64,000 nt of DNA, from NCBI GenBank assembly GCA_964494105.1, contig CAZBQI010000003.1, positions 21,737-85,736 on the forward strand. The letters run 5' to 3'. Source of the DNA: an uncultured Candidatus Saccharibacteria bacterium (lineage in GTDB: Bacteria > Patescibacteriota > Saccharimonadia > CAZBQI01). Positions 22,257 to 29,988 of the stretch are shown piece after piece. Below the pieces are notes generated by a model. That model saw only the letters and a list, made by a program, of their open reading frames with translations. It searched no databases and was not told where the DNA came from. How positions within the stretch are numbered: position 1 is the stretch's first letter; every line of letters begins with the position of its first letter. The position numbers and the translations under genes were made by a program.

Positions 22257-24801
22257 AGTTTTCTAGGTACTCAATAAGTTTCGCATGCTCTCGCTGTTTA
22301 AATGCGGAGCGGTACTTGATGATATCAAGGCCGTTCCTAAGTCCCTGTGAATAAAGGGAGGTATCTTTGGTGGCAAAAAAATTACGTGCACGTCGTGCCA
22401 GGCGGTTATCACTATAACTTCCTAATATTGATTCAACCAAACCACTCTTCACAATTGTCCCGGCGTAGTTATCGTGAAACCATTGCCAGTTCTTTTCTAT
22501 ATATTCCCACATATAACTTTGAGTATGACGATTCCGACAAAGGTATATTACCCAAACATAAGCATCCTGCACGCGCACCTCTTTGCGCATGAATTCGAGC
22601 GCCTTTTTCCCAAGGCTTGGCTGATGAAAATTAGTCATAGCGCGAGCAATTCGGCGTTGCTCCTCACTATTATCAGTACCGCGATGCCACTTAATTAATT
22701 GGGCAAACTCTTTTCGACCACCATGTCTGGCTACAGTGCTTAGGGTGATGTCACGAATATCAGGGTTAATGTTCTTATTATTTAGGAGTTGTTTGTAGAT
22801 ATTTTGGATATTGGCCACTGCATCGCCATACTCGAATCTAGCGGCCAGATTAAGGACAGTTAATTGCAGTTTTATTTCGTTATGCGAAGCATTTTTGCCA
22901 ATCTTCCATACCAGTCTTGGGTAATGGTAAGAAATTAAGTGATGAATATAGGGCTGCAAAAGTTTATCAAATTTGTCACTACCGAAAGTTAAGTTAAGAG
23001 TACCGATACCAGAGCCAATTTGTTCCCACACCTCAGCAACATTTGATTTTCTTGCACTAATAAAGAGCTTCAAAAGCTCGGGCAAATGCGAGTAACCCGC
23101 AATTGCGAGATCAAGCTGGTCGCCTAAGAGCCCGATAGCTTCCAGTTCGTCTAGGCTGTTTTGTGAAATTTTCGCATCTAGCTTCAGTAGGTCTTCTCGA
23201 GGATAGGCGACTCGGTAAAAACCACTTTGACCAACGTTTAGATTCATAAAAGATTCAGGTTTGATTTTCAATTCGATTGTTTTCGATATAGTTTTTAGTT
23301 CTAGTTTATATGTTTTGGCATCGACTTGAATGTGCAGGGGGACTGGCCAAATAACATGTGGTAATTTTGATTTGTTATTATACCTAAAAATTGATTGATT
23401 AAACTCAATTTTACCTTGTTTTTGGCTATAGCTGATAATCGGATGACCCGGCTGATGTACCCATTTATGCATGAACTCTTTTACCGGTTTTTTTGCTACT
23501 TTTTCCAATTCCGACCATAAATCATTGCGAGTTGCATTTTTGTATGAGAAGCGAGTGAGGTATTGTTTTAGGCCGCGCCGGAAAGTCTCCTCACCCAAGT
23601 ATGATTCGAGCATTCGAATGGCACTAGAACCCTTGCGATAGGTAATTGCGTCAAACTTCTGAGCTATCTCACCCGGGTGATTAATCGTGGCATAGATTGC
23701 GTGGGTAGTTGAGTAGCTGTCGCTACGCAAAGCCCCAAACATATCTGAACTAACGTATTCCCGCCACATATGCCAATTTGGCCTGATATGATTGCTGCAT
23801 TTATACTCAATCCAGCTAGCAAAGCCCTCATTTAACCACAGATCATCCCACCACTGCATGGTTACTAAATTTCCGAACCACATATGAGCGAGCTCATGTG
23901 TAACTACAATCGTGTTGTAGATAAGCATGTCTTGAGACGTGGTTTTCGGATCTACCAAAAGCGAATCAGCTCGATATACAACACAGCCCCAGTTTTCCAT
24001 CGCTCCCACGCCCGGTTCCATATCGGGTATGGCAATCTGGTTTAAGTTTTCCAGGGGGTAGTTTATTCCAAAGTAATTCTCGTAGTATTCCAGAGCTTTC
24101 TTTGCCAGATACAGCGATTCGTCAACAAACTTAATTTGACTTGGAATTGCGTAGGTGCGAATAATAACGCCTCGTCTGGTTTTCGTCTGCTTGTACTTCC
24201 AGTCTCCCGCTGATATTGCCAGTAGGTAGCTAGACATTTTTGGTGTAGGTTTAAATACTGTGACTTTTTTAGAATCGTTTATTTCTTCAGATTCAGACAG
24301 AGTGTTGCTAATTACCACATCATCTTTAGGTGTCGTAATTGTTAGCTGAAAAACCGCTTTCGCAGCAGGCTCATCAATACAAGGCAAGAGCTGACGAGCA
24401 TAGGTGCTTTCAAGCTGACTGGTTAACAGGTATTTTTCTTTGCCCTTTTCAGTATAAGTGCTGCGGTATATTCCATGGGGGTGTTTATTAATCTTACCGC
24501 TGTATGATATTTTAAATTCGCACTTGCCAATACTAAGTTTTTTGGAAAAAACTATTTTCACTTCCTCTTTTTCTGTATCAAAGACAACTGACTTGCATGA
24601 GTTTGTAACTTTATTCTGAGTAACCTCGACTGAATTAAGCTGTAAATTCTTACTGTGCAAAGTAACCTGCTTTGTGATTTTTGGTAAGTGGCCACGTATT
24701 ACTAGCTCTGAAGTAAAAGACAGTTTATTAATATTCGGGGCCAAATTCAGGCTGTAGCGGACCGGTTGAAATTCGGGTAAAAGCTGACGGACTTTTGTCA
24801 T
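22234..24801 (-). CDS. pepN: aminopeptidase N (M1 family)
   Basis: HELAHMWFGNLVTMQWWDDLWLNEGFASW zinc-binding HExxH...E motif, and GAMEN (GVGAMENWG). Start is moved to the internal Met MTKVRQ at 24801; the upstream extension overlaps nusA. Confidence 0.9.
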   Translation of the reverse strand: MTKVRQLLPEFQPVRYSLNLAPNINKLSFTSELVIRGHLPKITKQVTLHSKNLQLNSVEVTQNKVTNSCKSVVFDTEKEEVKIVFSKKLSIGKCEFKISYSGKINKHPHGIYRSTYTEKGKEKYLLTSQLESTYARQLLPCIDEPAAKAVFQLTITTPKDDVVISNTLSESEEINDSKKVTVFKPTPKMSSYLLAISAGDWKYKQTKTRRGVIIRTYAIPSQIKFVDESLYLAKKALEYYENYFGINYPLENLNQIAIPDMEPGVGAMENWGCVVYRADSLLVDPKTTSQDMLIYNTIVVTHELAHMWFGNLVTMQWWDDLWLNEGFASWIEYKCSNHIRPNWHMWREYVSSDMFGALRSDSYSTTHAIYATINHPGEIAQKFDAITYRKGSSAIRMLESYLGEETFRRGLKQYLTRFSYKNATRNDLWSELEKVAKKPVKEFMHKWVHQPGHPIISYSQKQGKIEFNQSIFRYNNKSKLPHVIWPVPLHIQVDAKTYKLELKTISKTIELKIKPESFMNLNVGQSGFYRVAYPREDLLKLDAKISQNSLDELEAIGLLGDQLDLAIAGYSHLPELLKLFISARKSNVAEVWEQIGSGIGTLNLTFGSDKFDKLLQPYIHHLISYHYPRLVWKIGKNASHNEIKLQLTVLNLAARFEYGDAVANIQNIYKQLLNNKNINPDIRDITLSTVARHGGRKEFAQLIKWHRGTDNSEEQRRIARAMTNFHQPSLGKKALEFMRKEVRVQDAYVWVIYLCRNRHTQSYMWEYIEKNWQWFHDNYAGTIVKSGLVESILGSYSDNRLARRARNFFATKDTSLYSQGLRNGLDIIKYRSAFKQREHAKLIEYLENFSWKHSE

Positions 24802-24922
24802 GAAGACTATTGTAACATATGGGGTAGAATTGACATTTTGGCTATGGTTTGCTATCGTTATAGTCAACAAAGGTCGGCCAAGCAGGTCGGCTTTTTTAAT
24901 AGCTAGGAGTAAAGAAAAAGAT

Positions 24923-26209
24923 ATGGATGATCAGATTGACCCAAAATTATTTATCGCTACAATGCGGCAAATTGCCGAAGAAAAGAATTTGCCGTTCGAA
25001 GTTGTGCAAGATGCACTCGAGCAAGCTTTAGCTGCTGCTTATCGTAAAGACCACGGTACGCGTGACCAGCTGATACGAGTGGAATTAAATACGAAAAGTG
25101 GAGATTACAAAGTATTTGTTGTGCACAACGTAGTTGATGAGGTAGAGAACGAAGAAACCGACCTGTTACTAGATGAGGCCAAGATAATAGACAAAGACGC
25201 CAAGATTGGCGGGACTGTAGAACAAGAAGAAGAAGTTAAGCCATTTGGTCGCGTAGCAGCCCAAACTGCTAAACAAGTTATTTTACAAAAGCTACGTGAA
25301 GCTGAGCGGGATGTTGTACAAGAAGAGTTTAGCGGTAGAATTGGGAGTTTATTGAATGGCACAGTACAACGCATTGAGCCAAAAGTTGTGTATGTGGATC
25401 TTGGCAAAGCCCAAGGGATTTTACCGGGTAGCGAGCAAATTCAGGGTGAGCACTATAGCAACGGGCAACGCCTGAAAGTATTCTTGAGAGACGTAGAAAG
25501 CTCAGCTCGCGGACCGCAACTTGTGCTTTCGCGGGCAAATCCGGAGTTCGTTTCACTACTATTTGAGCGCGAAGTACCAGAAATGGAAAACAATGCTGTA
25601 GAGATTAAGGCGATTGCGCGTGAAGCAGGCGTTCGCACCAAAATTGCTGTGGCTTCAACCGTTCCTGGAGTTGACCCTGTTGGTACGTTCGTTGGTGGTC
25701 ATGGTACGCGGGTGCAGGCGGTAATGAATGAAATCGGCGAAGAAAAAATCGATATTGTAATGTATAGCGACGATATTATTACACTCATAACAAATGCGCT
25801 GTCTCCGACTAAAATTACTAAAGTTACACTTGACGAGAAAGAACACAAAGCCTCAGTAGAAGTGCCTGAGGACCAATTGTCGATCGCAATTGGTAAGAAT
25901 GGTCAAAATGTACGCCTGGCATCAAAACTTACCGGTTGGCAGATAGACATTGTTGGCGCCAGTGGCGACAGACGAGAAGCACAAGATGTACCAGAAGCAC
26001 CTACAAAAGCCGTGGCACCTAAGCGACCGGCTAGCAAGTCTGACCTAGAAGCAGCTTTAATTGGAGCTGTTGATGAGCACGGTGAAGAGCCAGCTGTTGA
26101 CGAAGCTCCAAAAACATCAGATGAGCAGTCAGAAAAACCTGTAGCTAGCGGTGACACGGAAGCTGCTAAAGATAGTTCCGAAGGCGTGACAGAAGCGAAG
26201 AAATCATAG
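24923..26209 (+). CDS. nusA: transcription termination/antitermination factor NusA
   Basis: N-terminal domain, S1 and tandem KH domains (GVDPVGTFVGGHGTRVQAVMNEIGEEKIDIV, SIAIGKNGQNVRLASKLTGWQIDI), plus an acidic C-terminal tail. Start is moved to the ATG at 24923 with AGGAGT RBS. Confidence 0.9.
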   Translation: MDDQIDPKLFIATMRQIAEEKNLPFEVVQDALEQALAAAYRKDHGTRDQLIRVELNTKSGDYKVFVVHNVVDEVENEETDLLLDEAKIIDKDAKIGGTVEQEEEVKPFGRVAAQTAKQVILQKLREAERDVVQEEFSGRIGSLLNGTVQRIEPKVVYVDLGKAQGILPGSEQIQGEHYSNGQRLKVFLRDVESSARGPQLVLSRANPEFVSLLFEREVPEMENNAVEIKAIAREAGVRTKIAVASTVPGVDPVGTFVGGHGTRVQAVMNEIGEEKIDIVMYSDDIITLITNALSPTKITKVTLDEKEHKASVEVPEDQLSIAIGKNGQNVRLASKLTGWQIDIVGASGDRREAQDVPEAPTKAVAPKRPASKSDLEAALIGAVDEHGEEPAVDEAPKTSDEQSEKPVASGDTEAAKDSSEGVTEAKKS

Positions 26210-26255: not shown

Positions 26256-26290
26256 TTGACACCAGTATACTAGCATGCTAGTATACTAAA
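26256..26290 (+). promoter_or_regulatory. promoter plus perfect 24-bp palindromic operator (AGTATACTAGCATGCTAGTATACT) for the TrpR-like regulator
   Basis: TTGACA at 26256-26261. The palindrome at 26264-26287 is a perfect reverse complement of itself, contains CTAG half-sites, and covers the spacer and -10 (TAGTAT 26279-26284). The ATG follows at 26293. Confidence 0.55.
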
Positions 26291-26292
26291 TT

Positions 26293-26595
26293 ATGTTATC
26301 AAAACATGATCAAGAACTAGTTACATTATTTACAAAGACAACAGATTACAATCTGATGGAGAACTTATTGTCTGGTATTTTAACGCCCGGCGAACGCACA
26401 GAAATAGCGCAGCGGCTGCAGATTATAAAGTTGCTACTTGATGGCGTGCCACAAGCAAAAATCGCTAAAGACCTCGGAGTTGGAATTGCGACCGTAACAC
26501 GGGGTTCACGTGCAGTAAAAAGCGGCTATTTTAAGGTGTTACAACAAAAAAGTGATCAAAAAATAACGGAGCACTCGCTTCGTTGGCGCTCATAG
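26293..26595 (+). CDS. TrpR-like (YerC/YecD family) DNA-binding protein
   Basis: 100 aa. TPGERTEIAQRLQIIKLLLDGVPQAKIAKDLGVGIATVTRGSR matches the Trp-repressor-like HTH of YerC/YecD proteins. Confidence 0.7.
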   Translation: MLSKHDQELVTLFTKTTDYNLMENLLSGILTPGERTEIAQRLQIIKLLLDGVPQAKIAKDLGVGIATVTRGSRAVKSGYFKVLQQKSDQKITEHSLRWRS

Positions 26596-26654
26596 CTAAA
26601 ACATTTATTTAATAACAATAATTTTACCAAGGGTGGGGTAGAGGAGTTTTAGAT

Positions 26655-29384
26655 ATGAGTGGAATAGAAAGTGCGCACGCAGAGTCCGCAACATCAGCTG
26701 GCATTAATAGAGCTTATGCCTCGGAGTTTGTTTTAACCCTGAGTGATGCCAAATGCCAAGATACAGAATTGGCGGGTGGAAAAGCGGCAAACTTATCGAT
26801 ATTAGTGCGAAACGGAGTGGATGTGCCCGAAGGTTTCGTGCTTACGACCGAAGCATACGATGTGATCACAAGGGATCCTTATTATTATGATCTGGGAATA
26901 GCGTACGATATGTTGTCAGGCACTAGCTATGTCTCAAACGGCAATACAGAAGGCAAAGAGCCAAGTGGACAGATGCTTGATATATTGGAAGAAGCATCCA
27001 GAGCTGCGAATTACTTTGAGGATGCAATAGCATTGCGAAGCTCAGCAACAGTTGAGGACGGATCAAGAACAAGTCTTGCAGGTGTATTTGATACGCATTA
27101 TGTCAATAGAGAATCTGCTAGTACACCTGGCTTGGTAATGAATACTATTCTAGGGATATATAAACAAGCTCAATCAGAAACAACTCGGCGGGCATTGATT
27201 GAGCACGGAATTAATCCTGATGATTTAAAAATGGCAATAATTATTCAACGCTTGGTAAAGGCTGAATACTCTGGTGTTATGTATACAAGAGCGAGTGGAG
27301 ATGGTCGCTTGGTTCAGTACACTCAAGGAATGGGGGATCGTTTGGTAGACGGGGTTACTACAGGTACTTCGATCATCATAGAACCCGAAACTGGTGTAAT
27401 CACTCGTTCATTTGATTTTGAATCACGTGCCATGCCACGTGAAAACGTGAAGGAGTTAGAAAGGGTTGCCTCAGAAGTCGAGTCAGTTTTTGGCGGCACA
27501 CCTCAGGATGTTGAATTCGCTATCGATGAGCGACGCAGTGTAAAAGTTGTTCAGTCCAGACCAATGACACGAGAAGTAGAAGGTATCTCTCAGGAAATTA
27601 CGACACTCGAAGCGGTTGATATGATCAAGGCTCGAGCTGAGGCAGTTATGCAACATGAGATGTCTAGGCTGAAGACTCAAAATTCTATTCTATTTCAAGC
27701 TAACTTTTCCGAATTACTGCCAAACCCGTCACCAATGGACGTTGGGGTGTTCCAGTACATTTTCCCTGGCAGGGACGAGGTAGATGGAGCAATTCAGATT
27801 GGGCGTCGTGACATGGGGTACCCATTAAAAGATGGTTCCACTGGTTACTTGCATTATATTGGTGGCAGAGCTTACGAGAGTTTAGCTGGCGACGCACTAA
27901 CCTATTTTGGAGGATTTCCTGAGAGTGAAGCGGAGTATGTAGAAACGCTCGTAGCTGAGTATTTGAGAAAAGTACAAGAAGACCCAGATCTTGCTTCCTA
28001 CCCGGAGATGGGATTATACCTGCAGGATCCTACTCTAGAAGATTTGCAAACAAGATACGGTGATCGCGCACCAAAACTCTTTGATGTCTATCATCAACTC
28101 AGACAAAAGCTCAAGTACTCGGCAGAAGTGTTTAAGGATAATTTTGGGCAGACTGGAAATATTGAAAACGAACAGTTTATCGAATCGTTGTCAGATCAGG
28201 AACTTGACGAGCTTGACGATGATGCACTGCTATATTCCACAGTCCTGATATTGGAGCATTTGAGACAAAAATCATGTGTAGACTTTGTTCATGCAGCTAG
28301 ACTTGGCTTCTACTATACCCAAAGACTTCAATCATTTCTCGCCGATACACTTGGTTTAGCACCTGATGAAATGCAAGAGACACTAGCAACTTTAGGCCAA
28401 GGCCTCGAAGGCAGTAGTGTAACAGAAACTAACATAGCAATTAGTGAAGCAGATGATCTGGATACTGCTCTAGCGATAGCAAGACAAAGGATATCTCATT
28501 ATCCCGCGATTGGAGAAATGTTAGAAATTAGGCATCCTAGACTTAGTGAGGACCCCGATGCATTGCGGGCATATGTTGAGGAGATACGAATTAATAGAGA
28601 CTTTAGGTTTAAACATGAGGCGCAGACGAAAGAGCGCAGAGTAGCGGAGCAATCATTAACTGAGATGCTACCTCTAGAACTACAAGCTGAATTTAGAGAA
28701 GTAGCAAAAAACGCGCAAACTTACATGGCTTTGCGAGAAACCATAAAGGACCAATTTGGTCGTGAGTACGGTCTACTAAGGGAGAGATTAGTTGAAATCG
28801 AATCACGCTTGGGTATTGTGCCAGAGGGGATTTTTTATCTTTATCCGCGAGAACTACCCGAAGTTATGCTCGATCCCAGTTCGTACTATCATATAATCGA
28901 AGCGCGCAAAGCCGAATTTACAGCTTTTCAGAAGGTGAGTATGCCTACGGTGATCACTCCGAGTAGCATTAGTTCTATAGAAGTTGGCGTAAGTAATAAT
29001 AGAAAGTTAGTCGAAGAAAAAGGCAGGTTTCTTTCGCACGGCACTGCTGTTCAGGGGGTAGTTATTAAGTTAGATGACTATGGTGAACTCGAGGATGACC
29101 CACAACACACAAGGGCTGCTTTACATCAGAGGATTCAAGAACTGAAAGGCAAAGGAGTAAAAGTAATTCTAGCTGCGCGTCAGGTTAATCTTACCGATGA
29201 CCCACTTATCAATCTCGCAGATGGTTTAATATTGCAGAAAGCGGGCATTGTATCTCATGGGGCTCAAAGGGCTCGTGAACTTGGGATAGGCGCACTATCT
29301 GGTATAGATATATCTATAATAGATTCTGGTATGAAGATAATATTTGATCCGCATAACAGAATGGTAAGGAGGATTGATGAGTAG
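26655..29384 (+). CDS. PEP-utilising-enzyme-family phosphotransferase with rifampin-phosphotransferase-like architecture (N-terminal ATP-grasp/PPDK_N domain, C-terminal mobile His domain)
   Basis: 909 aa. N-terminus has GGKAANL and RSSATVEDG. The extreme C-terminus has GIVSHGAQRARELGIGALSGI (swivelling phospho-His motif). No C-terminal PEP-binding TIM barrel, so not a bona fide PpsA. Confidence 0.65.
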   Translation: MSGIESAHAESATSAGINRAYASEFVLTLSDAKCQDTELAGGKAANLSILVRNGVDVPEGFVLTTEAYDVITRDPYYYDLGIAYDMLSGTSYVSNGNTEGKEPSGQMLDILEEASRAANYFEDAIALRSSATVEDGSRTSLAGVFDTHYVNRESASTPGLVMNTILGIYKQAQSETTRRALIEHGINPDDLKMAIIIQRLVKAEYSGVMYTRASGDGRLVQYTQGMGDRLVDGVTTGTSIIIEPETGVITRSFDFESRAMPRENVKELERVASEVESVFGGTPQDVEFAIDERRSVKVVQSRPMTREVEGISQEITTLEAVDMIKARAEAVMQHEMSRLKTQNSILFQANFSELLPNPSPMDVGVFQYIFPGRDEVDGAIQIGRRDMGYPLKDGSTGYLHYIGGRAYESLAGDALTYFGGFPESEAEYVETLVAEYLRKVQEDPDLASYPEMGLYLQDPTLEDLQTRYGDRAPKLFDVYHQLRQKLKYSAEVFKDNFGQTGNIENEQFIESLSDQELDELDDDALLYSTVLILEHLRQKSCVDFVHAARLGFYYTQRLQSFLADTLGLAPDEMQETLATLGQGLEGSSVTETNIAISEADDLDTALAIARQRISHYPAIGEMLEIRHPRLSEDPDALRAYVEEIRINRDFRFKHEAQTKERRVAEQSLTEMLPLELQAEFREVAKNAQTYMALRETIKDQFGREYGLLRERLVEIESRLGIVPEGIFYLYPRELPEVMLDPSSYYHIIEARKAEFTAFQKVSMPTVITPSSISSIEVGVSNNRKLVEEKGRFLSHGTAVQGVVIKLDDYGELEDDPQHTRAALHQRIQELKGKGVKVILAARQVNLTDDPLINLADGLILQKAGIVSHGAQRARELGIGALSGIDISIIDSGMKIIFDPHNRMVRRIDE

Positions 29385-29988
29385 AGTGACTTTTCTGCGT
29401 CATGGTATTCTTCAGAATCCATATAACGACTATACTCAACTAACATTAATGCAGCTAAATGAATTAGCCGAGCAGAAAACACAGCCACATATCAACCAGG
29501 CGCAATCAACGCATCTTATCAGCAAAAAAATTGAAAGTCTCAAAAGTATAGAAGCTATTTACTGTGCCACTAATCGTCGTTCGGCTGAGACAGCTGCCTT
29601 ACTAGCACAGAGCTTAAATAAGCCATTTCCAATAGAAGCAACAGCATTATTAAATGAAATTGTTTTTAGCCCAGCTAAGATGATAGCTGAAGCTCAGTAT
29701 AAATTAGCAGGCATGGATGCAATTAGGGAGAGTTTATTTATGTCTATAGTCTCAGGGGACGGCAAAGCTGAAAGCCTGAGCGATATTTACAATCGGGTCA
29801 ATAGAATAGATGGTTTAATTAAAAAATCTAGATACGGGGATGTGCTTGTTGTAACGCATGGATTCTTAATGCGCTTTTTACAGGTACATTATTTACAAGA
29901 ACAAGTAAATTTTATGCATATAAAAGCAGAAGATATCGCACAACAGAAAAATTACTATTATTTAGATGGCTTTACTACAAAAATATAG
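29377..29988 (+). CDS. histidine phosphatase superfamily protein (phosphoglycerate-mutase-like)
   Basis: FLRHG (RHG catalytic His), RRSAETA and VVTHG motifs. AAGGAGG RBS. Overlaps the upstream gene by 8 nt. Confidence 0.7.
   Translation: MSRVTFLRHGILQNPYNDYTQLTLMQLNELAEQKTQPHINQAQSTHLISKKIESLKSIEAIYCATNRRSAETAALLAQSLNKPFPIEATALLNEIVFSPAKMIAEAQYKLAGMDAIRESLFMSIVSGDGKAESLSDIYNRVNRIDGLIKKSRYGDVLVVTHGFLMRFLQVHYLQEQVNFMHIKAEDIAQQKNYYYLDGFTTKI

What the first reader, a model, noticed from the sequence alone, without database searches (positions are those of the whole stretch)
26256..26595. Autoregulatory perfect 24-bp palindrome with CTAG half-sites upstream of a TrpR-like regulator
AGTATACTAGCATGCTAGTATACT (26264-26287) is a perfect palindrome that overlaps the spacer and -10 of a TTGACA promoter. 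It ends 5 nt before the ATG of a YerC/YecD (Trp-repressor-fold) gene. E. coli TrpR operators are built from ACTAG half-sites (GTACTAGTTAACTAGTAC), so this looks like a cognate operator and a textbook self-repression site. The arrangement also implies a leaderless or near-leaderless transcript.
Basis: partly seen in the sequence, partly recalled or inferred. Interest (0 to 1): 0.55.

Follow-up and report, generated by a model that had tools for sequence, protein, structure and literature searches.

The report
Trp-repressor operator inside its own promoter
The 24-bp palindrome is very probably the DNA site where the small Trp-repressor-type protein encoded just downstream shuts off its own promoter; this is a familiar kind of switch, but here it sits in a Saccharibacteria genome and also appears to control an uncharacterised enzyme pair.

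Summary
AGTATACTAGCATGCTAGTATACT (26264-26287) is a perfect palindrome and the longest in the window. It lies between TTGACA and covers an extended -10 (TGcTAGTAT), ending 5 nt before the ATG.

The 100-aa protein is a TrpR-family repressor. It is closer to E. coli TrpR than to YerC/YecD.

In 57 of 82 related loci from many lineages, arrays of ACTAG spaced 8 bp apart occupy the same place. In 26 of 42 loci with a strong promoter match, the -10 lies 6-8 nt from the ATG, which implies a leaderless mRNA. The site is 24/24 conserved in a relative whose gene is only about 70% identical at the DNA level. The residue equivalent to E. coli Arg69 co-varies with the base flanking the site.

In 28-29 of 53 loci the next gene is trpE, trpB or trpC, so the family is a genuine Trp regulator. 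Here the next genes are a rifampicin-phosphotransferase-like ATP-grasp enzyme and a histidine phosphatase. In other Patescibacteria the same pair sits behind TrpR operators, T-box-like leaders or a Trp-Trp leader peptide.

The operator is a new member of a known kind. The downstream genes are the more interesting lead.

The parts
26256..26261 (+). -35 hexamer TTGACA
   Evidence: Promoter scan. TTGACA or a near-match is found at the same distance in most orthologous loci.
26264..26287 (.). Perfect 24-bp palindrome, the proposed TrpR-type operator
   Evidence: It is 24/24 identical in L001 and L002.
26269..26282 (.). Operator core ACTAG-CATG-CTAGT: two CTAG tetramers 8 bp apart, centre to centre
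   Evidence: The core is identical to the E. coli ACTAG-N4-CTAGT. CTAG-CTAG spacing is 8 bp in 53 of 60 cases in orthologs.
26262..26265 (.). Degenerate outer repeat CCAG (CTAG in relatives L001 and L002)
   Evidence: Alignment. Relatives carry the 28-bp palindrome CTAGTATACTAGCATGCTAGTATACTAG, which has four CTAG.
26286..26289 (.). Degenerate outer repeat CTAA (CTAG in relatives L001 and L002)
   Evidence: Alignment.
26276..26284 (+). Extended -10, TGcTAGTAT. The TG comes from the palindrome centre CATG.
   Evidence: TG before the second hexamer. TGCTAGTAT recurs in many orthologs.
26293..26595 (+). trpR-like gene (100 aa). The ATG lies 8 nt after the -10 and there is no Shine-Dalgarno sequence.
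   Evidence: The 18 nt upstream, ATGCTAGTATACTAAATT, contain no SD-like tetramer.
26587..26661 (+). Predicted RNA hairpin pairing the end and stop codon of trpR-like with the start codon of the next gene. Candidate translational coupling.
   Evidence: Inverted repeat I2. RNA fold -24.7 kcal/mol, z -3.1. Arms are present in L001. Function is inferred.
26655..29384 (+). Downstream gene 1: 909-aa protein with a PPDK_N (ATP-grasp) domain and a PEP-utilizers swivel domain, rifampicin-phosphotransferase-like architecture
   Evidence: No terminator-like site between it and trpR-like.
29374..29988 (+). Downstream gene 2: His_Phos_1 histidine phosphatase (204 aa), overlapping gene 1 by 11 nt
   Evidence: The same pairing is seen in L094, L098, L100, L101 and L103.
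24800..26209 (+). Upstream neighbour nusA. Its stop codon lies 46 nt before the -35.
   Evidence: The synteny nusA - trpR-like - atpC is shared with L001 and L002.

Best explanation
The palindrome is the operator of the TrpR-family repressor encoded immediately downstream, and it is built into the core promoter.

A repressor dimer, most likely loaded with L-tryptophan as corepressor, would place one helix-turn-helix on each ACTAG half-site (26269-26273 and 26278-26282). That covers the promoter spacer and the extended -10 (TGcTAGTAT), so RNA polymerase cannot bind. When the corepressor is scarce, the promoter fires.

Transcription should start at or within 3 nt of the A of the ATG. The mRNA is therefore leaderless and carries no Shine-Dalgarno sequence.

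The transcript probably continues through the 59-nt gap into the 909-aa ATP-grasp/swivel-His phosphotransferase-like gene and the overlapping histidine-phosphatase gene. If so, the repressor controls itself and these two genes as one unit, an arrangement like Chlamydia trpRBA.

Close relatives have four CTAG at 8-bp spacing, which would allow tandem dimers as on E. coli trp operators. This window retains only the inner two.

Shown here: the sequence, the promoter geometry, family membership and fold, conservation, and co-occurrence across lineages. Inferred: binding, the identity of the corepressor, the transcription start site, and co-transcription of the downstream genes.
For: Anatomy.

Protein: Pfam Trp_repressor 70.3 bits. 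E. coli TrpR is the best solved relative by sequence (8.9e-9) and by predicted fold (pLDDT 90.9; 1trr/1tro TM 0.70, 34-35% identity). By alignment, the residues equivalent to E. coli T44, R54, T81, R84 and G85, and the helix GIAT-x-TRGS, are conserved.

Operator core: identical to the E. coli consensus.

Conservation: 24/24 in L002, against 70.5% identity (49% at third codon positions) in the rest of the gene.

Family-wide pattern: ACTAGNNNNCTAGT (up to 1 mismatch) lies within 120 nt upstream of the start in 57 of 82 loci, with 2 unrelated hits in 375 kb. CTAG spacing is 8 bp in 53 of 60 cases, and the -10 to ATG gap is 6-8 nt in 26 of 42 strong promoters.

Protein-DNA co-variation: loci with Arg at the E. 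coli R69-equivalent position have G at the flank (GTACTAG) in 32 of 42 half-site flanks. Loci with other residues have A in 79 of 96. The window has Ala and ATACTAG.

The family is Trp-linked: the next gene is trpE in 18, trpB or trpB-like in 9, and trpC in 2 of 53 loci.

Autoregulation of trpR is the conserved core of the TrpR regulon in Gammaproteobacteria (PMC5343134) and operates at Chlamydia PtrpR (PMC7755916 abstract).

Operon inference: no terminator-like site between the genes, an 11-nt overlap between downstream genes 1 and 2, and the coupling hairpin.
Against: No binding, footprint, transcription-start or expression data exist for this organism.

The protein falls just below NCBI's TrpR equivalog cutoff (60.0 against 67.25). 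E. coli S88 and R69 are not conserved (Ala74 and Ala55 here), so the ligand or affinity may differ.

With TAGTAT as the -10, the ATG is 8 nt downstream, slightly long for a start exactly on the A. A 2-3-nt leader is equally possible.

No trp biosynthetic gene lies in the 64-kb window, and Saccharibacteria are not expected to make tryptophan, so what the switch is for remains inferred.

The Arg/G co-variation is concentrated in a few clades and is not phylogenetically corrected.

The same 18-mer also occurs next to unrelated regulators, namely a ribbon-helix-helix gene in Caulobacter and GntR-type genes in Lactobacillaceae. The sequence alone therefore does not prove TrpR binding.
Confidence: 0.8

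Rival explanations
1. The site is an operator bound by this protein, but the effector is not L-tryptophan. It could be another indole or aromatic compound, or there could be no ligand. The switch would then report something other than Trp supply.
For: E. coli S88, a pocket residue, is Ala here and Glu in most family members. The downstream genes in this lineage are not trp biosynthetic genes. The protein scores below the TrpR equivalog cutoff.
Against: Residues equivalent to T44, R54, T81, R84 and G85 are conserved. The family heads trpE, trpB or trpC genes in 28-29 of 53 loci. The same downstream gene pair is found behind T-box-like leaders with a UGG-containing loop and behind a Trp-Trp leader ORF in other lineages.
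Confidence: 0.12
2. The palindrome acts as RNA. It would be either a terminator hairpin for the upstream nusA gene, or a 5'-UTR hairpin on read-through transcripts that masks the start codon of the regulator.
For: The simple scan lists it as terminator-like (10-pair stem, 3 G-C pairs). It lies 55 nt after the nusA stop codon, and the ATG follows 5 nt later.
Against: The tail AAATTATGTT is not a U-run. The motif keeps its place relative to the -35 and the ATG in loci whose upstream gene is different or divergent. What is conserved is CTAG at 8-bp spacing, often as three or four direct repeats, not stem complementarity. From the overlapping promoter the palindrome would not be transcribed at all.
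Confidence: 0.04
3. The palindrome is bound by some other protein or is a chance feature of an AT-rich promoter. Its position next to a TrpR-like gene would be coincidental.
For: The identical 18-mer occurs beside unrelated regulators in Caulobacter and Lactobacillaceae and at sites with no obvious regulator. One of 200 shuffles of the window gives a 24-bp palindrome.
Against: The motif co-occurs with TrpR-like genes across dozens of independent lineages. It is perfectly conserved against a diverged background. Its core is identical to the experimentally defined E. coli TrpR operator. There is residue-base co-variation.
Confidence: 0.03

Closest known systems
E. coli TrpR and its operators (trpEDCBA, aroH, trpR, mtr, aroL)
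   Same: Same fold and nearly the same recognition helix. Same operator core ACTAG-N4-CTAGT. Same 8-bp repeat of CTAG; my own knowledge of the tandem-binding literature, plus the title of PDB entry 1trr, links this spacing to tandem dimer binding in E. coli. Same logic of an operator overlapping the promoter and of trpR autoregulation (PMC5343134).
   Different: The protein is shorter in most family members (80-100 aa) and scores below the TIGR01321 cutoff. Arg69 is replaced by Ala, and the flank base is A rather than G. The operator fills the whole core promoter and supplies the extended -10 TG. The mRNA is leaderless, whereas to my knowledge E. coli trpR has a normal leader. The downstream genes are not trp genes.
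Chlamydia trachomatis trpRBA operon
   Same: The repressor gene is first in the operon that it represses from its own promoter, in an organism that cannot make tryptophan de novo (PMC7755916 and PMC6504234). Many loci found here are trpR-trpB, trpR-trpE or trpR-trpC.
   Different: The genes downstream here are an ATP-grasp/swivel-His enzyme and a histidine phosphatase, not trpBA. The gap between regulator and downstream gene is 59 nt and contains a coupling hairpin, not a long intergenic region with a second promoter.
YerC/YecD family TrpR-related proteins (TIGR02531; PDB 3kor, 3frw, 3g1c)
   Same: Same overall all-helical TrpR fold (TM 0.74-0.76).
   Different: Only 18-22% identity, against 34-35% to E. 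coli TrpR. TIGR02531 scores 25.2 bits against a cutoff of 42.2. phmmer to 3kor gives 2.5e-3, against about 1e-8 to TrpR.
Rifampicin phosphotransferase / PEP synthase-like enzymes (closest known relatives of downstream gene 1)
   Same: PPDK_N ATP-grasp domain at the N-terminus and a PEP-utilizers swivel domain at the C-terminus. Homologs also hit Rph_4th.
   Different: Only about 100 bits and about 28% identity over a third of the protein to any named member. About 78 Patescibacteria-type homologs form a separate group at 500-700 bits. All NCBIfam scores are far below cutoff. The substrate is unknown.

Membership tests
Trp repressor family (Pfam PF01371) | Significant match to the family profile above the gathering score | tested here: met
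   70.3 bits against a cutoff of 27; residues 7-78 match profile positions 4-76 of 88.
Trp repressor family (Pfam PF01371) | All-helical TrpR fold with a helix-turn-helix (helices D and E) | tested here: met
   AlphaFold2 model with pLDDT 90.9 and six helices. The best PDB matches are E. coli TrpR 1trr, 1zt9 and 1tro, TM 0.70-0.71, rmsd 2.2-2.4 Å.
TrpR proper (NCBIfam TIGR01321, equivalog) | Score at or above the curated equivalog cutoff | tested here: not met
   60.0 bits against a cutoff of 67.25. It is the nearest family but falls just below threshold. NCBI names relatives 'Trp family transcriptional regulator'.
TrpR proper (functional definition) | Corepressor-pocket and DNA-reading residues (E. 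coli T44, R54, T81, R84, G85, S88; I79, A80, T83; R69) | tested here: inconclusive
   By alignment, T31, R41, T67, R70, G71, I65, A66 and T69 are conserved. S88 is replaced by Ala74 and R69 by Ala55. The roles assigned to these residues come from my knowledge of the E. coli structures.
TrpR proper (functional definition) | Operator made of ACTAG half-sites, 8 bp centre to centre, overlapping a promoter | tested here: met
   ACTAGCATGCTAGT at 26269-26282, inside the TTGACA/TAGTAT promoter. E. coli reference sequences are. The 8-bp spacing holds family-wide.
TrpR proper (functional definition) | Tryptophan-dependent binding of the protein to that operator | not testable with these tools
   Needs purified protein with and without L-Trp (gel shift or footprint).
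TrpR proper (functional definition) | Control of tryptophan-related genes | tested here: inconclusive
   Family level: the next gene is trpE, trpB or trpC in 28-29 of 53 loci. In this window the next genes are an uncharacterised ATP-grasp enzyme and a phosphatase. Their link to Trp is by association only.
YerC/YecD TrpR-related proteins (NCBIfam TIGR02531) | Score at or above the curated cutoff | tested here: not met
   25.2 bits against a cutoff of 42.2. Identity to the YerC-like structures 3kor and 3frw is 18-22%.
Leaderless mRNA | Transcription start at or within a few nt of the start codon, with no Shine-Dalgarno sequence | tested here: inconclusive
   The -10 ends 8 nt before the ATG and there is no SD-like tetramer. 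The gap is 6-8 nt in 26 of 42 orthologous strong promoters. The 5' end has not been mapped.

The most novel reading that the evidence does not exclude
The operator may be the visible handle of an unrecognised tryptophan-starvation regulon in Patescibacteria. Its core would be a rifampicin-phosphotransferase-like ATP-grasp/swivel-His enzyme paired with a His_Phos_1 phosphatase; in the closest relatives a DUF3182 ATP-grasp protein takes their place.

In different lineages the same gene pair sits behind three unrelated Trp-sensing devices:
- TrpR operators: this window, L007, L100 and L103.
- T-box-like leaders whose short stem-I loop reads GGUUGGAA (UGG followed by A): L094 and L101.
- A leaderless 18-codon ORF with tandem Trp codons followed by a hairpin and U-run: L100.

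That would point to a new enzymatic activity tied to tryptophan or tRNA-Trp supply in organisms that lack the classical pathway.
Probability: 0.45. Interest if true: 0.7.

Novelty: new member of a known kind. Interest (0 to 1): 0.45.

Why it matters
On its own, the site is a clean and easily testable example of a classical repressor-operator pair in Saccharibacteria, a group for which almost no transcriptional regulation has been worked out. A full-text search found no paper that mentions TrpR together with these phyla.

The site gives a ready-made promoter/operator module that could be used in the newly tractable Saccharibacteria. The module consists of a -35, a CTAG array, a -10 and a leaderless ATG.

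It also shows that this compact design is shared across many lineages.

More importantly, it labels two uncharacterised enzyme families as probable members of a tryptophan-responsive gene set in bacteria that depend on their hosts for amino acids. These are the RPH-like PPDK_N/swivel-His protein with its His_Phos_1 partner, and DUF3182. This turns 'function unknown' into a specific biochemical question.

Tried and rejected
1. **Regulon search in the window.** There is no second copy of the palindrome at up to 3 mismatches, and no second ACTAGNNNNCTAGT at up to 1 mismatch. The 2-mismatch hits look like background.

2. **Regulon search in 185,579 species genomes** with the 18-mer ATACTAGCATGCTAGTAT.
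   - It gave 11 hits, about the number expected by chance.
   - Four are next to TrpR-like genes (L084, L088, L089, L093).
   - The rest lie next to a ribbon-helix-helix gene (Caulobacter), next to GntR-type genes (two Lactobacillaceae), or at sites with no obvious regulator.
   - No genome had two copies, and the window's own genome was not hit. No regulon could be defined.

3. **Terminator or RNA-hairpin reading of the palindrome.** Rejected on geometry and on the pattern of conservation.

4. **Rfam at gathering thresholds** on six related loci found nothing. The T-box matches appear only below threshold, at 31 and 48 bits against 93, so they are called T-box-like.

5. **Homology between the alternative downstream genes.** BLASTP of DUF3182 against the 909-aa protein shows no similarity. 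They are distinct genes inserted at the same place. DUF3182 has no PDB relative by sequence.

6. **CTAG at +25 of the coding region as an auxiliary operator.** Eight of 72 orthologs have CTAG at +25 to +31, but this coincides with the conserved Glu-Leu-Val codons, so the result is inconclusive.

7. **Terminator after the L100 leader ORF.** The simple scan did not call it. The hairpin and U-run are seen only in the fold.

8. **Literature searches** for TrpR in Patescibacteria and for T-box/Trp in Patescibacteria found nothing relevant.

Full report
**Observation**

The window reads TTGACA (26256-26261), CC, AGTATACTAGCATGCTAGTATACT (26264-26287), AAATT, ATG (26293). The 24-mer is a perfect palindrome. 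It is unique in the window even at 3 mismatches. It is the longest perfect palindrome in the 64 kb; the next longest are 16 bp, and 1 of 200 shuffles reaches 24 bp.

A consensus scan finds TTGACA, 17 nt, TAGTAT with a TG one base upstream of the -10. The palindrome therefore occupies the spacer and the extended -10, and its CATG centre supplies the TG. The ORF 26293-26595 (100 aa) starts 8 nt after the -10 with no Shine-Dalgarno-like sequence.

**The protein**

It matches Pfam Trp_repressor at 70 bits. Among NCBI's curated models it is closest to TrpR proper (TIGR01321, 60.0 bits, cutoff 67.25). It is far from YerC/YecD (TIGR02531, 25.2 bits, cutoff 42.2).

E. coli TrpR is the best solved relative by sequence (about 1e-8). 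The YerC-like S. aureus protein 3kor scores only 2.5e-3.

An AlphaFold2 model (pLDDT 90.9) superposes best on E. coli TrpR, including the operator complexes 1trr and 1tro (TM 0.70, 34-35% identity). YerC-like structures share the fold at 18-22% identity.

In an alignment of 38 homologs, LGVGIATVTRGS is essentially invariant; E. coli has LGAGIATITRGS. By alignment, the positions equivalent to E. coli T44, R54 and R84 are conserved. S88 and R69 are not conserved here (Ala74 and Ala55).

**The organism**

ATP synthase beta from the window is 82-83% identical to proteins named Candidatus Saccharibacteria or Saccharimonadales. The exact TrpR-like and 909-aa proteins come from a 95.7-kb NCBI contig with no names attached.

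**Orthologous promoters**

The two closest relatives are L001 (protein 94% identical) and L002 (78% identical). Both keep the order nusA - trpR-like - atpC. Both carry the palindrome unchanged and extended to 28 bp, CTAGTATACTAGCATGCTAGTATACTAG, which gives four CTAG at 8-bp spacing.

Between the window and L002 the palindrome is 24/24 identical. The rest of the gene is 70.5% identical, and 49% at third codon positions. The window has lost both outer CTAG (CCAG and CTAA).

A metagenome scan with the family alignment returned 80 further loci.
- Almost all show a -35-like hexamer followed by arrays such as tACTAGtatgCTAGTAt, ACTAGtatACTAGTA or GTACTAGTAC. These arrays end 0-10 nt before the ATG.
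- ACTAGNNNNCTAGT (up to 1 mismatch) falls within 120 nt upstream of the start in 57 of 82 loci. Only two unrelated positions match in the remaining roughly 363 kb.
- Successive CTAG are 8 bp apart in 53 of 60 cases. Among 42 non-redundant loci with a strong promoter match, 26 have 6-8 nt between the -10 hexamer and the ATG.

The leaderless, promoter-embedded operator is thus a family trait and not a peculiarity of this window.

**Specificity**

The core ACTAG-N4-CTAGT is identical to the E. coli operator. The 1TRO DNA is TGTACTAGTTAACTAGTACA (PMC2504314). The E. coli TrpR motif is GTACTAGTTAACTAGT (PMC2811016).

The residue after the invariant Gln aligns with E. coli Arg69. To my knowledge, that residue contacts the flanking G. 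It co-varies with the flank base:
- Arg-type proteins have G (GTACTAG) in 32 of 42 flanks.
- Proteins with Ala, His, Lys or Gln have A (ATACTAG) in 79 of 96 flanks.
- The window has Ala and ATACTAG.

This is what one expects if the encoded protein reads the adjacent site. However, the Arg/G class is concentrated in a few clades and the test is not phylogenetically corrected.

**What the family regulates**

Of 53 distinct same-strand downstream genes:
- 18 are anthranilate synthase I.
- 9 are PALP enzymes. Eight of these are at least 51% identical to a TIGR00263-qualified TrpB.
- 2 are indole-3-glycerol-phosphate synthase.

In two Nomurabacteria genomes the exact 18-mer of this window lies between trpS - trpR-like and either trpB or an amino-acid racemase gene.

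The family is therefore a genuine tryptophan regulator that often heads the operon it controls, as in Chlamydia trpRBA. Autoregulation is already known as the conserved core of TrpR regulons (PMC5343134).

**Mechanism proposed for this window**

A holorepressor dimer on the two ACTAG half-sites occludes the spacer and extended -10. Derepression gives a leaderless (0-3-nt leader) mRNA for the regulator.

The transcript probably continues into the next two genes. No terminator-like site intervenes. The two downstream genes overlap by 11 nt. A predicted hairpin (26587-26661, z -3.1) pairs the regulator's stop-codon region with the next start codon, which suggests translational coupling.

Binding, ligand, start site and co-transcription are all inferred.

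**Rivals**

A nusA terminator or 5'-UTR hairpin is unlikely for four reasons:
- The tail is not U-rich.
- The motif persists where the upstream gene differs or is divergent.
- The conserved feature is CTAG periodicity, not pairing.
- The overlapping promoter would not transcribe the palindrome.

A site for another protein is unlikely given the co-occurrence and co-variation. Still, the same 18-mer sits beside unrelated regulators elsewhere, so sequence alone is not proof.

A non-Trp effector remains possible, because S88 is not conserved and the downstream genes are unusual.

**The downstream genes (a side finding)**

In the window the downstream genes are a 909-aa protein and a His_Phos_1 phosphatase. 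The 909-aa protein has a PPDK_N ATP-grasp domain and a PEP-utilizers swivel domain, the domain layout of rifampicin phosphotransferase.

In L001 and L002 the same slot holds a DUF3182 protein instead. DUF3182 is also downstream of TrpR-like genes in L010, L028 and L038. It has been assigned to the ATP-grasp fold (PMC4431377).

The 909-aa protein belongs to a sharply separated group of about 78 homologs (500-700 bits, then a drop to about 100 bits). Where homologs are named, they are from Patescibacteria.

Ten genomic contexts were sampled:

| Context | Arrangement |
|---|---|
| Window, L007 | TrpR-like gene directly upstream |
| L100, L103 | Enzyme - His_Phos_1 - TrpR-like, with an ACTAG array upstream |
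| L094 | Racemase - TrpRS - enzyme - His_Phos_1 - tRNA_edit, behind a T-box-like leader |
| L101 | T-box-like leader directly in front of the enzyme, with a divergent 340-aa class-Ib aminoacyl-tRNA synthetase gene (TrpRS-like by length, not model-checked) |
| L098/L099 (same arrangement, one context) | TrpD-like gene, chorismate mutases, an aromatic-type decarboxylase and a class-Ib tRNA synthetase nearby |
| L095 | PrnB-like gene |
| L096/L097 (same protein, one context), L102 | Asparagine synthase; no Trp link |

In L100 the operator overlaps a promoter. That promoter's -10 lies 7 nt before a short ORF, MNQRKQFTQNYWWLPKYI, which is followed by a hairpin and U-run.

The T-box matches are below Rfam's threshold, and the specifier assignment (loop GGUUGGAA) is my reading.

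Taken together, this is association evidence that the enzyme pair responds to tryptophan or tRNA-Trp status. Its substrate is unknown.

**Comparison and verdict**

The switch works like E. coli TrpR at its own promoter and like Chlamydia trpRBA in layout. It is a member of the Pfam TrpR family, not a YerC/YecD protein, and sits just under the equivalog threshold for TrpR proper.

It differs in three ways: the mRNA is leaderless, the operator coincides with the core promoter, and the downstream genes are not trp genes.

The finding as stated is correct and is a new member of a known kind. The higher-value lead is the downstream gene pair.

Noticed in passing
window 26655-29988; L001 2126-3265; L002 6279-7349: Gene replacement directly behind the regulator. 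The window carries a 909-aa PPDK_N/swivel-His enzyme plus a His_Phos_1 phosphatase. The 94%- and 78%-identical relatives carry a DUF3182 (ATP-grasp) gene in the same slot. In L001 the intergenic sequence is conserved right up to the start codon.
   Followed up: partly
L094 913-1130; L101 3704-3918; L100 3743-3908; L103 3638-3800: Homologs of the 909-aa enzyme and its His_Phos_1 partner sit behind three kinds of element in other Patescibacteria-type contigs. Two are T-box-like leaders (31 and 48 bits, below Rfam's 93; loop GGUUGGAA). One is a TrpR-type ACTAG array combined with a leaderless short ORF that has tandem Trp codons (MNQRKQFTQNYWWLPKYI) and a hairpin with U-run.
   Followed up: partly
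window 26587-26661: A predicted RNA hairpin pairs the last codons and stop codon of the regulator gene with the start codon of the next gene (z -3.1). This may provide translational coupling. The arms are also present in L001.
   Followed up: partly
window 26293-26323: The first 31 nt of the coding region are 31/31 identical to L002, including 10 of 10 third codon positions, against 49% third-position identity in the rest of the gene. The stretch contains AACTAGTT at +23. This may reflect a constraint from leaderless initiation or an extra half-site. The family-wide test was inconclusive.
   Followed up: partly
window 26262-26265 and 26286-26289: Both outer CTAG of the ancestral four-CTAG, 28-bp operator are mutated in this genome (CCAG and CTAA), leaving two. 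The same genome is the one with the different downstream genes. This may mean fewer tandem repressor dimers and looser repression.
   Followed up: no
L084 3706-3723; L093 3859-3876: In two Nomurabacteria genomes the identical 18-mer lies downstream of trpS - trpR-like. In L084 it is followed by trpB. In L093 it lies 4 nt before the ATG of a small ORF that is followed by an amino-acid racemase-like gene. The operator there serves the next transcription unit rather than the regulator's own promoter.
   Followed up: partly
L091 1199-1216; L087 6860-6877; L090 6004-6021: The same 18-mer occurs in two unrelated settings. In Caulobacter it sits between TTGACA and the ATG of a 58-aa ribbon-helix-helix-like gene. 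In two Lactobacillaceae it sits in a region conserved between them, next to a GntR-type regulator. These may be unrelated regulators using the same palindrome, or chance matches.
   Followed up: no
L003-L082 (table): The residue at the E. coli Arg69-equivalent position tracks the base flanking ACTAG: Arg goes with G, and Ala, His, Lys or Gln go with A. This is a candidate specificity rule for the family. It has not been corrected for phylogeny.
   Followed up: partly
window 24800-24870: The longest ORFs of nusA (+ strand) and the divergent aminopeptidase N gene (- strand) overlap by 71 nt at their 5' ends. The NusA_N domain starts only at residue 51, so the true nusA start is probably the internal Met near residue 42.
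   Followed up: no
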